NCBI GenBank assembly: GCA_964016885.1
Contig: OZ024740.1
Span: 73,098,001-73,162,000 of the forward strand
Length of the DNA stretch: 64,000 nucleotides
Reading direction: 5' to 3'
Origin: Eledone cirrhosa
Taxonomy: Eukaryota
The notes under the pieces were generated by a model. It was not told the DNA's origin. It saw nothing but the letters and a program-made list of their open reading frames with translations, and did not search any database. Each line of letters starts with the position of its first letter. Position 1 is the first letter of the stretch. The translations under genes were made by a program, and so were the position numbers. Below, piece after piece: positions 7,919 through 60,924 of the stretch.

Positions 7919-8112
7919 AACGAAGGAAATGTGGTAAGGAACCAGGTGGACCATAACGCACCAAAGTACTCAATACTTAGGGTAGTAGAGTGGGTAATAG
8001 GAACAAGTAAGACCCCGACGGCTGAGCTCAAGCCGTTTCGACGGCTAATTCTGGACTGAATTAGCCGTCGAAACGGCTTGAGCTCAGCCGTCGGGGTCTT
8101 ACTTGTTCCTAT
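7919..8112 (-). mobile_element. Fold-back PLE-type short element (family P1): palindrome plus tail in (TA)n
   Basis: Near-perfect inverted repeat 7996-8112 carrying the 3' half of a hammerhead (GAAAC GGCUUGAGCUCAGCC GUC). Tail at 7919-7995. Relatives at 9598, 10511, 12988, 28070, 31041, 56424 and 60826. Confidence 0.7.
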
Positions 8113-10510
8113 ATATAATTATATATATATATATATATATATATATATATATATATATATATATATATATATATATATAGTTAGGTATGTTGGTTCACTA
8201 CTGGATAGAATTGGTCATTCCTTCCGTATGGTCAATCTCGATGTAATATATTATGGAGAGTACTCAACGTAATGCAGCTCACCCATATACTATATATATA
8301 TATATATATATATATATATATATATATATATATATATATATGCTATATATATACATATATATATATATATGTCCATGTATATAAATGATATATTTTTATA
8401 TCTATAAATTATATTTGTATGAATATACATATGAATATTTATATATATATATATTGATATAGACAAATATATATATGCATATATATAAATATATGTATAA
8501 TATATGTGTGTGTGTTTGTATATATATGATATTCAAGTGAAATAAGTGTGGACGTTACATAACGTTCTGTACAGATCATATATATGTACAAGGAACGCTT
8601 TTGTTATCCTTTTCCTCATATATGTGTGTGTGTGTGTGTGTGTGTGTGTGTGTGTGTGTGTGTGTGTGTGTGTGTGTGTGTGTGCGCGCGTGTGTGTGTG
8701 TGTGTGTGTGTGTGTGCGCGCGCGTGTGTGTGTGTGTGATAGACGTTGATTGCCAAATAAATTAACGATAGTGATATGAAATATACAAAATCGAAAACCA
8801 ATCCCAAAAGTGACTGTGTTTTATTATTTCTGGTAATATTATAACAATATAACCCTCCCAAATATAATAATATATATATACAGCTATATTACAAATATAT
8901 ATGTGTATATATATATATATATATATATATATATATATATATATATATATATATATATATATATATATATGTATATATATTTATATATATATATATATAT
9001 GTTTATATAATATATATGTATATATATATATATATATGTATATATATATATGTATATATATATATGTATATATATATGTATATATATATATATAGGTATA
9101 TATATATGTATATATATATGTATATATATATATATATGTATATATATATGTATATATAAATGTGTGTATATATATATATCTATGTATATATATATATATA
9201 TGTATATATATATATATATATATATATATATGTATATATATATATTATATATATATATATATATGTGTGTGTGTATGTATGTATATATATATATATATAT
9301 ATTATATATATATATATATATATATATATATATATATATATGTGTGTGTGTATATATATATGTATATATATATATTTATATATATATATATATATATATA
9401 TATATATGTGTATATATATATATACATATATACATATATATATATATATATATATATATGTGTGTATATATATATATACATATATACATATATATATATA
9501 TATATATATATATATATATATATATATATATATATATATATATATATATATATATATATATGTATATATAAATGTATATATATATATTTATATATAATGT
9601 CAGGTTCGGACCAGTTAGACCATTTCTCAACAGAGTCCTCGATTCTTGGGATAGTAGCTTATGGCTATATATTATAAAGAGCTCTTTATAATATATAATA
9701 TAATATAATATAATATAATATAATATAATATAATATATATATATATATATATATATATGTTTACAATAACAGAAGCACCCATGCAAGGATTTAATATTAT
9801 CTAACGTTATTATAACTGTTGAGAGGGACAAATACAGTAACATTACAAATATATATATATATGTATATTACAAATATGTATATATGTATATATATATATA
9901 TATATAATATATATGTGTATATATATATATATAATATATATGTGTATATAATATATATGTATATATATATACAATATATATATAATATATATGTATATAT
10001 ATATATATATATATATATATATATACATATATATAATATATACGTATATATATACATATATATAATATATACGTATATATATATATATATATATATTAGA
10101 TCGCAGATATAAAAGACAGCGAGAAGCGAAAACCAACCAAACAGTGAGTGTGTTCTGTTATTAATTCTGGCAATATTACGCAAATATGACCCTCCCCAAA
10201 TATAACAATATATATATATATATATATATATATATATATATATATATATATATATATACACATATTATATATATATATATATATATATATATATATATAT
10301 ATATATATATATATATATATATAATATATATATATATATATATATATATGGTTGAGGCCATACTGGCGCACCGCCCTTGTTGCTACACATTTTATCTCCA
10401 CCCTCTATTGTATAAATAGTAAATAATAAATTATTTTATTTTATTTTATTTTATTTTTCTTGTGCAATGGCCATACTTGATAACGAGAGAACTGCCATTC
10501 TATATATATA

Positions 10511-10619
10511 TAGGAACGAGTAGTTTCTACTCGTTCCTATTACCCACTCTACTACCCTAAGTATTGACTACTTTGGTGCGTTATGGTCCACCTGGTTCCT
10601 TACCACATTTCGTCCGTTA
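10511..10619 (+). mobile_element. Family P1 short fold-back copy
   Basis: Hairpin taggaacgagtag...ctactcgttccta followed by the P1 tail (actctactaccctaagtattga...ccttaccacattt). Confidence 0.65.
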
Positions 10620-12375
10620 TATATACATATATACATATATATATATATATATATATATATAATATATATATATATATATATATATATATATATATATAAT
10701 ATATATATTATATGTATACATATATATATGTATATATATATATGTAAATATATGTATGTATATATACATATTTATATATATATATATATATATATATACA
10801 TATACAAATATATATACAAATATATACATATACAATATATACATATACAATATATACATATATATATATATACTTATATATATATATATATATATATATA
10901 TATTATATATATATAATATATATATATATATAGTTATATATATATTTATGTATACAGTATACACATATTCTCAGCTGCAAGCTGTATATAAACCTTTTAT
11001 AAATCACCATATATATATATATATATATATATACATATATATATATATATATATGTATATGTGAATAACTTGGGCATATGGCGATGATTATCTATGTTGA
11101 TATGCTCACGATTACAACTATATATATATATATATATATATATATATATATATATATATATATATTATAGTTAAATTGTAAAGACAATTTAACTATATAT
11201 CAAACATTAAACTAATCCATTTCTACGTTGTAGTGGTGTACTGTGTTGTTTTAATCGTTGTTTACGCCTACGTCTTGCATACCTCCTATACACCCCCACA
11301 CACACACACACATATATACATACATATATGTATATATATATATATATATATATATATATATATATATATATATATGTATATATATATATACATACATGCA
11401 TACATACAATTATATATTTCTATATATTAATATAAATAAACATCTCTCTCTCTCTCTATAGATATATATATACATACGTGTGTGTGTCTATATATATATA
11501 TTATCTATATATATATATATTATCTATATATATATATTATCTATATATATATATTATCTATATATATATTATCTATATATATATATTATCTATATATATA
11601 TATTATCTATATATATATATATATATATATGTGAATTAAAATTAGAGTAAGAAGCCAGGACTATCCATCATCAGTGATCTTCTGGTAATCATAGGTATTT
11701 CTTCGCACGCCAATTTTCATCTACATGTATGTATATATATATATATATAAGACAACAAACAGACGTATAAAAAGTCTTATTATTTATATATATATTTATA
11801 TATATAATATATATAATTAGCTTAAACAGTGACATGTGCAGGTGCTTAAGATTCGTTGTGTATTTACCGCAACTCATTCAGCCTGTCATATAAATAAAAT
11901 GTAAGCCATCTTTATTCATACAACAGGCTGAATTGGTTGGGGTGCATAACCCAACGAAACTTACGTACCACTACATATAACAGTTGTAACTAAAAATACT
12001 TAGCTCGTTCTATGGAATGAGAGCGTTTACCCTTTGATATTTATACCAAATGTGTATACAGTATATATATATATATGTATATATATATATATATATATAT
12101 ATATATATATATATATATATATATATATATACTAATACACACATATGTATGTGTATATCCATATATATATTTATATGTTTTTATGTATATATATATATAT
12201 ATATATATAAATGAATAGGAAAGATCGATAAAAGAAGAAATATTTATATACATATATATATATATATATATATATATATATATATATATATATATATATA
12301 TATATATACCTGCCAAGACTGGAATTGAACCATCAGCACAGTTGAGGTATGTCATACATCAATACATTAATTTAT

Positions 12376-12445
12376 ATATTTTATCTGATGAGGACGTACT
12401 GAGGAAACAGCTCAGTACCTCCGAAAAATATATATAATAAAATAT
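12376..12445 (+). ncRNA. Minimal type I hammerhead in a solo PLE pseudo-LTR (12309-12490)
   Basis: atattttat CUGAUGA ggacgtactgag...ctcagtacctcc GAAA aatatata UA ataaaatat. Two extra A's in stem III relative to sister copies. Confidence 0.6.
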
Positions 12446-12987
12446 ATTTGATTACATGAATCTCTATATTTATTAATATTTTGAATTAATACATATATCT
12501 CTATATATCTACATATATATATATATATATATATATAGAGAGAGAGAGAGAGAGAGAGAGAGAGAGAGCGAGAGAGAGAGAGAGAGAGAGAATGATATTG
12601 ATATTATTATCTATGTAATTCTATATAGTAAATGTTGATAACATTTACTATATAGAATTCACACAGAAATAATATATATATACATATATATATGAATATA
12701 TATAATATATAAATATATATATATAAATATTTACACACACACACACATATATATCTGTGTGTGTTTATATATATATATATATATATATATATATATATAT
12801 ATATATATATATATATAAGAAAAAAAGATGAAATTGAAAAAGACTTCAGTTGCATTTTCGATATCATCTTTTTTCCTTATCCTTTCACTCGTTTACCACA
12901 TCGCGTTTTTTTTCATTTTGAAAAAAGACCCTCATTTTCTAATATATATATATATATATATATATATATATATATATATATATATAT

Positions 12988-13161
12988 AGGAAAAAGTATG
13001 ACCCCGACGGCAGAGCTCAAGCCGTTTCGGCGAGCCGTCGAAACGGCTTGAGCTCTGCCGTCGGGGTCCTACTTGTTCCTATTACCCACTCTACTACCCT
13101 AAGTATTGAGTACTCTGGTGCGTTATGGTCCATCTGGTTCCTTACCACATTTCCTTCGTTT
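12988..13161 (+). mobile_element. Family P1 fold-back copy
   Basis: Inverted arms joined inside hammerhead stem II (gtttcggcg|agccgtcgaaac), then the tail, flanked by (TA)n. Confidence 0.7.
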
Positions 13162-59895: not shown

Positions 59896-59980
59896 CCTGT
59901 TGGGGAACAGATGACCATAATTTTTACACCAAGCTGGATCGGTAAGGATTTATTTCGTGTACCAACAGGTAGATATTATT

Positions 59981-60573
59981 TTGAGTTCAAATCCCGCCGA
60001 GGTTGACTTTGCCTTTCATCCTTACGGGGTCGATAAAATAAAGTACCAGTAATGAACTGGATAATTGCTGGCCTTGTGCCTAAAGTAGAAACAATTATTT
60101 TATACTTTCAAAGAATGCCCTCTGAAGAAATTGTATTCTACAGTATTGTCTGCTTTATATGTTGAAATAGTCAACGCTGTTTCTTGATAATTGAAATCGC
60201 GATAAGGGCGAGAATAATGGTGAAGCTCTCTTATTATTTTAGATTGCTTTAGGGTGGTGGATTGGCAGTATCGGTAGAAGGTCGGACGCCATGCTTTGCC
60301 GCATAGAGTTACGGCCCTTTATGATCTGAGTTCAAATCCCGCCGAGGTCAACTTTGCCTTACGGGGTCGATAAAATAAAGTACCAGTCACGCACTGGGGT
60401 CAATTTCATCGACTTTTCCCTCCCCCAAATATTGCTGATCTTGTGTCTATATAAGAAACCATTATTTTAGATTTCGTTAGAGCGGTAGATTGGCAGAATC
60501 GGTACAGCGTAGGACACCTTGCTTCGCGGGCATCGTTACGTTTCTTTGAGTTCAAATCCTGCCGAGGTTAGCT
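59981..60573 (+). mobile_element. Three family-B SINE copies (59981-60097, 60250-60460, 60481-60573)
   Basis: Family-B domains in plus orientation. Confidence 0.8.
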
Positions 60574-60665
60574 TTTTTTTAGACTATATATATATACTAT
60601 CCTCACTGAACTTATAACATTAAGTTCACATGAAGATATGTCACTATCTTAACACCAGTTATTAT

Positions 60666-60724
60666 ATTTTATCTGACGAAAGTGTACTTAAATATTAGTA
60701 CCCTTGAAATACATATAATAAAAT
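60666..60724 (+). ncRNA. Minimal hammerhead in a solo Naiad-related pseudo-LTR
   Basis: attttat CUGACGA aag uguacu...aguac ccuu GAAA UACAUA UA ataaaat. The downstream flank matches 50197-50236. Confidence 0.7.
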
Positions 60725-60825
60725 AAATATGGTTTTATAAAGATGTTTTCCATTTATTAATATTATATATATATATATATATATATATATATATATATAT
60801 ATATATATATATATATATATATATA

Positions 60826-60924
60826 TAGGAAAATGTTTAAACATTTTCCTATTACCCACTCTACTACCCTAAGTACTCTGGTGCGTTATGGTCTATCTGG
60901 TTCCTTACCACACTTCCTTTGTTA
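60826..60924 (+). mobile_element. Family P1 minimal fold-back copy
   Basis: Perfect palindrome taggaaaatgtttaaacattttccta plus the P1 tail. Confidence 0.65.

What the first reader, a model, noticed from the sequence alone, without database searches (positions are those of the whole stretch)
7919..60924. A guild of dissimilar hammerhead-associated mini-elements shares the Naiad's integration signature
Seen: at least eight sequence families (P1 at 7919/12988/56424; 35289; 38263; 37819; 45100; 46755; 50355; 51817) and the coding Naiad (47031-50328) have one architecture. It is (TA)n, an inverted arm ending at an internal TA-like site, a sense arm that runs about 50-95 bp further (tail), then (TA)n. 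About 20 intact or degenerate hammerhead motifs occur in 64 kb. Established: PLEs make inverted pseudo-LTRs with a 3' extension and carry minimal hammerheads. Inference: one (TA)n-targeting GIY-YIG/RT machinery mobilises many small RNAs and scatters palindromes through the microsatellites.
Basis: partly seen in the sequence, partly recalled or inferred. Interest (0 to 1): 0.8.

Follow-up and report, generated by a model that had tools for sequence, protein, structure and literature searches.

The report
Penelope stumps and hitch-hiking hammerhead RNAs
Five of the eight mini-repeats are cut-short ends of their own protein-coding Penelope-type retrotransposons; three are small non-coding hammerhead repeats with the same insertion scar that likely borrow such enzymes; and a shared hairpin lies just after the two points where copying likely starts.

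Summary
The architecture is real: (TA)n, inverted arm, sense arm, 43-94 bp tail, (TA)n, with 18 structured hammerheads (shuffles 0.025). The coding element is not a Naiad but a 5'-truncated Hydra-clade Penelope-like element (PLE). Five families (P1, 35289, 38263, 45100, 50355) are truncated ends of their own Hydra RT-endonuclease genes, 30-54% identical as proteins. A Neptune/Nematis-type PLE at 53099 also targets (TA)n, so there is no single machinery. Three families (37819, 46755, 51817) are closed, non-coding 428-656 bp hammerhead units (retrozyme-like). Their copies end at two fixed sites in (TA)n, have ragged 5' ends and inverted arms, and never ran into an ORF in the copies examined: junction-level evidence for mobilisation in trans. 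New here: a bulged hairpin (RCTC/2-nt bulge/GAGY-RCT) lies 2-10 nt 3' of the arm end in all six Hydra families and of the tail end in the four read through. It also occurs in five of six published Hydra consensi. Two units carry a U6-like promoter pattern. The scan noted similar PLE stumps before, in a shark (e1-7858806).

The parts
7919..8112 (-). P1 copy: tail 7919-7996, sense and inverted arms 7997-8112; 3' stump of a coding Hydra-clade PLE
   Evidence: parent ORF; tail-to-ATG read-through in L277
12988..13163 (+). P1 copy: inverted arm 12988-13032, sense arm and tail 13033-13163; bulged hairpin at 13088
56425..56586 (+). P1 copy; hairpin at 56514
35290..35451 (+). 35289 family stump (arms to about 35358, tail to 35451, hairpin 35370); own Hydra ORF in L276, L286
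36725..37800 (+). About 2.5 head-to-tail copies of the 428-bp non-coding unit U37819; hammerheads at 37056 and 37488; U6-like promoter pattern at 37405
37820..38247 (+). U37819 insertion: inverted arm 37820-38091 ending at the arm-end site, short sense arm 38092-38247 ending at the tail end
38263..38613 (+). 38263 family stump with hammerhead core at 38425 and hairpin at 38538; own Hydra ORF in L277
45101..45475 (+). 45100 family stump (arms 45101-45395, tail to about 45475, hairpin 45406); tail runs into own Hydra ATG in L085/L273 and L086
45476..46131 (+). 1.1 copies of a fourth closed non-coding unit (581 bp, U45850), joined without (TA)n to the 45100 tail; full Hydra hairpin at 46033; no canonical hammerhead or inverted arm found
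46755..47023 (-). Stump of the about 435-bp non-coding unit U46755: tail 46755-46800, sense arm to about 46892, inverted arm to 47023; the sense arm begins about 2 nt 3' of the unit's hammerhead cut site
47031..49846 (-). Long arm of a 5'-truncated Hydra-clade PLE: RT C-terminal part and GIY-YIG endonuclease (ORF pieces 49846-48691), 3' UTR, terminal repeat ending at the arm-end site
49847..50328 (+). Short inverted arm of the same element with hammerhead (50133-50197), tail 50241-50328 and hairpin 50245
50355..50664 (-). 50355 family stump: tail 50355-50422, hairpin 50413, hammerheads in both arms; complete pLTR-ORF copy in L275
51817..53075 (-). Insertion of the 656-bp non-coding unit U51817: tail 51817-51917, arms 51918-53073, hammerheads at 52275 (-) and 52716 (+); hairpin lacking the final RCT after the arm end
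53099..53603 (.). Palindromic stump of a different PLE clade (Neptune/Nematis-type endonuclease), also in (TA)n, without the Hydra hairpin

Best explanation
The window is a (TA)n landing strip for at least six coding Hydra-clade Penelope-like families and one Neptune/Nematis-type family, whose short palindromes are their own truncated ends, plus three non-coding hammerhead units that carry the same scar and are likely copied in trans by such enzymes. Shown from sequence: every family's copies end at two fixed sites (arm end S1, tail end S2) next to (TA)n, have ragged 5' ends, and are often joined head-to-head with an inverted copy. In Hydra families a bulged hairpin lies 2-10 nt 3' of S1 (6 of 6) and of S2 (4 of 4 read through), the second just before the ATG. 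Inferred: the RT-endonuclease binds the RNA at these hairpins, nicks both strands of a (TA)n tract, and primes two cDNAs internally, usually one from S2 and one from S1. Both usually stop early and are joined at their ends, giving palindrome plus tail. The three units would be transcribed from their own promoters (U6-like in two), run through tandem copies, be cut at least partly by their hammerheads, and be captured by the same reaction. U51817, which keeps most of the hairpin, is most likely served by a Hydra enzyme. The partner of U46755 (degenerate hairpin) and U37819 (none) is open.
For: Coding parents. Hydra motifs in all six ORFs, as far as each was covered: against the definition in PMC8557442 section 11. 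Closed units: a same-strand second copy in 27, 7 and 15 of 30 loci, against 0-2 of 30 in coding families; longest ATG ORF 47-58 aa. Copies picked by the region after S2 run on to S1 or S2 in 23 of 26, 25 of 29 and 25 of 30 cases, and none runs into an ORF. 3' ends cluster at two sites while 5' ends scatter. TA-free self-inverted 5' junctions: 49/86, 74/121 and 57/84 in the units, 28/73 to 119/172 in Hydra families, 46/98 in the Neptune-type family, but 6/188 and 4/49 in two SINEs. Hairpin: a 2-nt bulge fits best in 17 of 18 instances; upper-stem pairs total 63 against 10.5 shuffled (max 31 of 2000); the strict descriptor gives 19 window hits against 0.3. It is present by eye in 5 of 6 published Hydra consensi. 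At 47031 a 2.8-kb arm ends at S1 and a 0.5-kb inverted arm ends at S2, which simple snap-back of one cDNA cannot make. 5' ends fall within -2..+12 of the hammerhead cut in 8 of 25 at-risk arms of U46755 (background 27/329, p 6e-4) and 4 of 25 of U51817 (12/345, p 0.01). Two internal RT start sites bounding the tail were shown in vitro for a Poseidon PLE (PMC11167929).
Against: Each search scored only the best 40 of 373-4375 candidates, so a rare or diverged coding parent of a unit is not excluded. U37819 has no hairpin and no pile-up at its cut site (2 of 22); U46755's hairpin is degenerate; none of the three units passes the strict descriptor. U45850 has the full hairpin, yet 0 of 34 segments end at its S1 and only 2 of 39 have inverted junctions. 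The alignment-free check of the cut-site pile-up was weaker: U46755 16/39 against controls of 9/55, 7/26 and 1/32. Stalling on the folded ribozyme would give a similar pattern. The promoter pattern was drawn after the fact from three U6 loci, with the spacing widened to admit the unit. Cross-family TA-free joints are few and also occur between different clades (L099). The 18 hairpin instances include relatives of one family. No tree was built against named PLE references.
Confidence: 0.75

Rival explanations
1. One reading: one (TA)n-targeting Naiad RT/GIY-YIG mobilises all eight families as non-autonomous small RNAs.
For: Shared architecture and (TA)n targets. One hairpin signal is shared by all Hydra families, so some cross-use among them is possible.
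Against: Five families have their own ORFs, 30-54% identical. The element lacks Naiad features. A second clade at 53099 gives the same scar without the hairpin.
Confidence: 0.03
2. All eight are ordinary stumps: the three tandem units are ORF-deleted terminal repeats of coding parents that still exist (or did until recently) and were not sampled, and were copied in cis from read-through transcripts.
For: Searches scored only 40 candidates each. Coding links were seen in only about 1-4 of 30 loci even for coding families. Li et al. 2026 report retrozyme-pLTR homology in Xenopus.
Against: All 42, 12 and 14 recognised read-throughs past S2 return to the unit start. 85 bridge-selected copies gave no ORF continuation. 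No shared non-unit continuation in 76, 56 and 52 segments except TA-separated neighbours. No similarity to the coding terminal repeats in hand. Two units have their own U6-like promoter pattern.
Confidence: 0.15
3. The inverted arm comes from self-priming or snap-back (as proposed for rotifer Penelope, on an antisense template) rather than from two separately primed cDNAs.
For: Short palindromes and loops at many junctions; proposal in PMC3846280.
Against: Unequal arms in which the long arm ends at S1 and the short arm at S2 (47031; 37820-38247). Both arms end at template-defined sites with (TA)n beyond (S1+TA in 7-20 of 30 loci per family). The Poseidon protein cuts and extends both strands in vitro.
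Confidence: 0.15
4. The units are satellite DNAs spread by DNA-level rolling-circle or recombination events, and the palindromes are repair products or assembly artefacts at (TA)n tracts.
For: Head-to-tail copies; TA-rich, gap-containing assembly region.
Against: Fixed 3' ends with ragged 5' ends at dispersed loci on many contigs. The same scar as coding PLEs, absent from SINEs in the same loci. Arms differ by several per cent, unlike assembly mirror images.
Confidence: 0.04

Closest known systems
Hydra-clade Penelope-like elements (Craig et al. 2021, PMC8557442; includes Hydra-1_Obim from Octopus bimaculoides)
   Same: C-terminal GIY-YIG, RWK/RWR, DKT, CxCX5C linker, CxxC and CxH, no CCHH, canonical hammerhead, (TA)n targets, inverted 5'-truncated copy and one-sided tail.
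   Different: At least six families here against one octopus family listed there ('no pLTR'). Tails are 69-93 bp against the 30-40 bp described for PLEs. The 3' UTRs are long (1-1.6 kb). The twin bulged hairpin is not mentioned in the main text, although it is visible in their consensus file.
Non-LTR retrozymes (Cervera and de la Pena 2020, PMC7229834; Li et al. 2026 preprint 10.64898/2026.07.22.740005)
   Same: Non-coding head-to-tail units of a few hundred bp with one type I hammerhead each; PLEs proposed as the mobiliser.
   Different: Those papers argue from co-occurrence, shared hammerheads and pLTR homology. Here the copies show two fixed 3' ends, a tail, an inverted arm and (TA)n targets. 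Copies are mostly 0.3-2.7 units and dispersed, and they end at S1/S2 rather than at the ribozyme cut. Circular RNA was not tested.
Poseidon PLE of Anolis in vitro (Frangieh et al. 2024, PMC11167929)
   Same: Two internal RT start sites bounding the tail; AT-rich cleavage of both strands; sequence 3' of the start sites required.
   Different: Different clade. There the start lies in an AC-rich stem-loop inside the ORF; here both sites lie upstream of the ATG, each followed by a conserved bulged hairpin.
Naiad PLEs (PMC8557442)
   Same: (TA)n preference, inverted copies, tail; present in octopus.
   Different: Naiads have an N-terminal endonuclease, CCHH and no canonical hammerhead; none of these holds here.
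Newt satellite 2 with an snRNA-type promoter (as cited in PMC2220036); non-autonomous Chlamys such as MRC1 (PMC8557442)
   Same: A hammerhead satellite with its own snRNA-type promoter; non-autonomous PLEs with head-to-tail copies.
   Different: The newt promoter is described as Pol II, while the pattern here matches U6 (TATA-containing). Non-autonomous Chlamys resemble their partners at the 3' end; these units show no such similarity.

Membership tests
Naiad | GIY-YIG endonuclease N-terminal to RT | tested here: not met
   743-aa relatives: RT catalytic motif at 353, endonuclease from about 600
Naiad | No canonical hammerhead | tested here: not met
   Structured hammerhead at 50133-50197
Naiad | CCHH motif in the endonuclease | tested here: not met
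   Only one Cys between the two halves of the GIY-YIG core in L057
Hydra-clade PLE | C-terminal endonuclease, single ORF | tested here: met
   (six families)
Hydra-clade PLE | RWK and DKT motifs | tested here: met
   RWR/RWK in 47031, 50355 and the L277 ORF start that follows the P1 tail; DKT in those and in 45100, 35289. N-terminus of 38263 not recovered
Hydra-clade PLE | CxCX5C linker; CxxC and CxH flanking E and N; no CCHH | tested here: met
   CxCX5C in 5 of 6 (not seen in the one 45100 copy examined); CxxC and CxH in 6 of 6
Hydra-clade PLE | Canonical hammerhead and (TA)n insertion | tested here: met
   P1 has a shortened core seen only in longer copies
Hydra-clade PLE | Generally under 3 kb | tested here: not met
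   ORF 2.2 kb plus 1-1.6 kb 3' UTR; described as a tendency only
Hydra-clade PLE | Groups with Hydra elements in an RT tree | not tested
   Reference proteins were seen only as supplement text; resemblance to Hydra-1_Obim judged by eye
Non-LTR retrozyme (U37819, U46755, U51817) | Head-to-tail units, each with a type I hammerhead | tested here: met
   longest segments 2.7, 1.6 and 2.1 units
Non-LTR retrozyme (U37819, U46755, U51817) | No coding capacity; unit of a few hundred bp | tested here: met
   428, about 435 and 656 bp; longest ATG ORF 47-58 aa
Non-LTR retrozyme (U37819, U46755, U51817) | Self-cleavage of the RNA | tested here: inconclusive
   Only indirect: 5'-end excess at the cut site in two of three units
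Non-LTR retrozyme (U37819, U46755, U51817) | Expressed as linear and circular RNA | not testable with these tools
   No RNA run was available to lay
Non-LTR retrozyme (U37819, U46755, U51817) | No LTR, PBS or PPT | not tested
   No LTR-like layout seen; PBS and PPT not searched
Neptune/Nematis PLE (53099 family) | C-terminal endonuclease with CX2-5CxxC linker and CCHH | tested here: met
   L321 ORF 800-1294; Neptune versus Nematis not resolved

The most novel reading that the evidence does not exclude
Hydra-clade PLEs define both internal reverse-transcription start sites with one conserved RNA element, a 4-bp stem with a 2-nt 3' bulge followed by RCT, kept across coral, sea cucumber, copepod and octopus families that share almost no other nucleotide sequence. 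Unrelated small RNAs that acquire this element (U51817, U45850) and their own U6-type promoter become PLE 'SINEs': hammerhead-processed retrozymes written into (TA)n by twin priming. This would give the first junction-level proof that animal retrozymes use PLE enzymes, and a roughly 30-nt portable signal that directs a telomerase-related RT.
Probability: 0.5. Interest if true: 0.75.

Novelty: new variant of a known kind. Interest (0 to 1): 0.6.

Why it matters
How PLEs choose internal start sites and make their tail and inverted copy is open; the one in vitro system mapped the sites but not the RNA signal. A short hairpin placed 3' of both sites in one whole clade makes that directly testable by compensatory mutation. 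Whether animal retrozymes are moved by PLEs has been argued from co-occurrence and homology; here their genomic junctions carry the PLE scar. For annotation, many short palindromes in TA-rich invertebrate genomes that look like MITEs or miRNA hairpins are PLE stumps.

Tried and rejected
Rfam scan of the window: the 150 listed rows were microsatellite-driven miRNA and similar hits below gathering score; no hammerhead family was among them, and the other 306 rows were not shown. Pfam gave no RT or GIY-YIG hit for the Hydra ORFs, so classification rests on motifs. My first reading of the ORF as Neptune (recalled) was dropped after reading the clade definitions. Apparent 5'-end pile-ups in coding families were rejected as artefacts of query start, subfamily divergence and low-complexity runs; that call says nothing reliable about hammerhead cutting in coding families. 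The 50355 row was dropped because its reference contained microsatellite. The U37819 S1 count (53 of 93) is inflated in the denominator by a low-complexity anchor. ORF fragments near units: 14 loci, of which 6 were read. Five are separate neighbours; in L534 the unit's tail end is joined without TA to a truncated Hydra endonuclease. The other 8 lie 150 bp or more away and were not read in that call. Local alignments of U2/U6 upstream regions to the units were not significant on their own (p 0.085 or higher). Sequencing runs for U51817: no RNA holder listed. Supplements of the bioRxiv preprint and Figure S9 of PMC7229834 were not seen and may bear on the novelty claim.

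
Full report
Setting. The window is G000:C1:73098001-73162000 of a 3.0-Gb assembly, 33% GC and dense in (TA)n. The best named homologue of the coding element is from Argonauta hians, so the host is probably an octopod (inference).

Observation. A masked self-comparison and direct reading confirm palindromes at all named places. Each family has two recurring 3' ends: S1, where the inverted arm stops, and S2, 43-94 bp further on. 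(TA)n follows 146 of 176 S1 ends and 167 of 212 S2 ends in coding families, and 84 of 103 S2 ends in the non-coding units, against 2.9-3.0% of random positions. Among 30 loci per family, an inverted arm ending at S1 plus (TA)n was found in 19 (P1), 9 (45100), 20 (35289), 18 (38263), 15 (50355), 7 (37819), 7 (46755) and 13 (51817). Eighteen structured type I hammerheads occur, against 0.025 in shuffles.

The coding element is Hydra-clade. Relatives of the 47031 element have open frames up to 749 aa. The 743-aa frame in L057 has RT first and the endonuclease last, with RWR, DKT, CxCX5C, CxxC and CxH, and no CCHH. These are the features given for the Hydra clade in PMC8557442 (section 11 read whole; passages). 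That paper says Naiads have an N-terminal endonuclease and lack canonical hammerheads. Its supplement lists Hydra-1_Obim from Octopus bimaculoides with (TA)n preference (parts 2, 52 and 53 and searches). The window copy is 5'-truncated at 49846. Its 2.8-kb arm ends at S1 and its 0.5-kb inverted arm carries the tail.

Five 'mini' families are stumps. Genome copies show ladders of 5' truncation. P1 continues 2.4 kb into RT and endonuclease in L031-L033. The 45100 tail reads straight into an ATG in L085/L273 and L086, and its endonuclease lies upstream in L283. 35289 (L276), 38263 (L277) and 50355 (L275, L279) are likewise linked. The six proteins are 30-54% identical and carry the Hydra motifs wherever covered. 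Several enzymes are therefore at work.

Three families are closed non-coding units. 37819, 46755 and 51817 recur head to tail at 428, about 435 and 656 bp, in 27, 7 and 15 of 30 loci, against 0-2 of 30 for coding families. Each unit has one type I hammerhead, no ATG ORF over 58 aa, and no detectable similarity to the coding terminal repeats. All recognised read-throughs past S2 (42, 12, 14) return to the unit start. Copies chosen by the region after S2 continue to S1 or S2 in 23 of 26, 25 of 29 and 25 of 30 cases, with (TA)n beyond in 23, 21 and 23, and none runs into an ORF. Their 5' ends scatter. Those 5' ends are joined TA-free to an inverted copy of the same unit in 57-68% of segments, like PLEs (38-69%) and unlike two SINEs in the same loci (6 of 188, 4 of 49) (the 50355 row was dropped). 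Limit: each search scored 40 of several hundred to several thousand candidates.

A shared RNA signal. All six Hydra tails begin with RCTC, an upper stem, a 2-nt 3' bulge, GAGY and RCT, starting 5-10 nt after S1. A second copy follows S2, 14-62 nt before the ATG, in the four families read through (47031, 45100, 50355, P1) and in two further families. The basal pair alternates A-U/G-C and the upper stem varies freely while pairing: 63 pairs against 10.5 shuffled; a bulge of two fits best in 17 of 18 instances, some of them related. By eye the motif is in 5 of the 6 Hydra consensi of File S7: twice before the ATG in Hydra-1_Ajap, at the 3' end of Hydra-2_Ajap and Hydra-2_Amil, in variant form in Hydra-1_Crog and Hydra-1_Obim, and absent from the incomplete Hydra-1_Amil. 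U51817 has it 2 nt after S1 without the final RCT, U46755 only degenerately, and U37819 and the 53099 family not at all. A fourth unit in the window (581 bp, 45476-46131, tandem in 13 of 30 loci) has it in full, but shows no canonical hammerhead and no S1-ended arm in 34 segments. This last point is not explained by my model.

Transcription and processing (weaker). Three U6 loci of this genome have TATGCWAAT at about -77 and a TATA box. The composite pattern matches U37819 in 24 of 30 loci and U46755 in 13 of 30; in 2.4 Mb of other held loci it gives 14 hits, 12 of them U37819 copies. The pattern was drawn after the fact. An upstream promoter can only be carried along if transcription runs through a second unit, which would explain the tandem form (inference). 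5' ends are in excess at the hammerhead cut in U46755 (8 of 25 at risk, p 6e-4) and U51817 (4 of 25, p 0.01), but not in U37819 (2 of 22). An alignment-free check was weaker, and stalling at the folded ribozyme is an alternative. A few TA-free or nearly TA-free joints between a unit and a Hydra piece (L534, L166, L317, window 45475) look like template jumps or mixed twin priming, but one such joint links different clades (L099), so they are only suggestive.

Mechanism. Shown: two fixed ends, (TA)n targets, ragged 5' ends, inverted junctions, the hairpin's position, coding parents for five families, closure for three. From the literature: a Poseidon protein cuts both strands of AT-rich DNA and starts reverse transcription at two internal sites bounding the tail (PMC11167929, parts 1-2 of 4 read). 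Inferred: hairpin recognition, twin priming from S1 and S2, joining of the two cDNAs, and capture of unit RNAs in trans. Self-priming (PMC3846280, passages) remains a rival for the inverted arm but does not fit unequal arms.

What is known and what is not. The inverted-copy-plus-tail layout, Hydra (TA)n targeting and PLE hammerheads, including opposite-strand pairs 100-700 bp apart (PMC4209133, part 1 of 4), are published. Retrozymes and their proposed PLE partners are published: PMC7229834 (passages and Discussion) calls PLEs 'a strong candidate'. The 2026 preprint (parts 1-3 of 5) adds co-occurrence and pLTR homology; the words tail, TPRT and junction do not occur in it. An snRNA-type promoter in newt satellite 2 is known (cited in PMC2220036, passage; original not read). 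An Octopus vulgaris repeat annotation counts 31 recently active Penelope-like families and does not mention hammerheads, retrozymes or Hydra (PMC13282606, passages). I did not find the twin bulged hairpin, or junction evidence for retrozyme mobilisation, in nine library searches (listings and abstract starts only) or in word searches of the two key papers. Subscription journals and several supplements were not covered. An earlier scan note on a shark (e1-7858806) reached the same 'stump' reading and pointed me to PMC3846280.

Verdict. The observation mostly holds; the single-guild, Naiad reading does not. What remains is a mix of known kinds with two new, testable points: a clade-wide start-site hairpin and PLE-type junctions on non-coding hammerhead units. 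Interest 0.6.

Noticed in passing
window 45476-46131; relatives 41384-42006 and about 59278: Fourth closed non-coding unit (581 bp) with the full Hydra hairpin, no canonical hammerhead and no inverted arms; it contains a motif like the distal element of this genome's U2/U6 genes.
   Followed up: partly
window 53099-53603; L321, L324, L341: Palindromic stump of a Neptune/Nematis-type PLE in which both arms carry the tail; related stumps at 8753-8873 and 10106-10211.
   Followed up: partly
window 18777-24114 (+): A LINE with ORF1, AP endonuclease, RT and zf-RVT, broken by stops.
   Followed up: no
L442 (G000:C10:48072200-48073200); also L444, L445: A full U6 retrocopy between (TA)n tracts, joined at its 5' end without TA to an inverted Hydra tail; two more U6 copies with 3' trailers lie in (TA)n. 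Possibly capture of U6 by the PLE reaction.
   Followed up: partly
U46755 position about 359 (L383, L384, L387, L394, L399, L404, L207 and others): A SINE inserts repeatedly at one ATT-repeat site inside the unit.
   Followed up: no
window 30015-30377 and 31596-31900: Head-to-head and tail-to-tail pairs of the same SINE next to (TA)n; such inverted joints are rare for this SINE overall (6 of 188).
   Followed up: partly
window 28070-28200, 31024-31218, 10514-10617, 60828-60923, 12302-12491, 35492-35717, 39485-39576, 46486-46685, 59153, 60596-60763, 36111-36330, 53646-53692: Further older or shorter stumps of the same and additional Hydra families, found by homology or by the hairpin descriptor.
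   Followed up: partly
window 39844-40338 and 42552-43046; related copy at about 4220-4550: A 495-bp inverted pair (96.6%) 2.2 kb apart, of a family not examined.
   Followed up: no
window 6695, 25344-25379, 40712, 58879: Solo minimal hammerheads of another type, without the palindrome-and-tail layout.
   Followed up: no
L410-L424 upstream regions: This genome's U2 and U6 genes share a distal pyrimidine-rich motif at about -265 to -287, and in U6 the octamer-like sequence lies at -77, the usual place of the proximal element (recalled).
   Followed up: no
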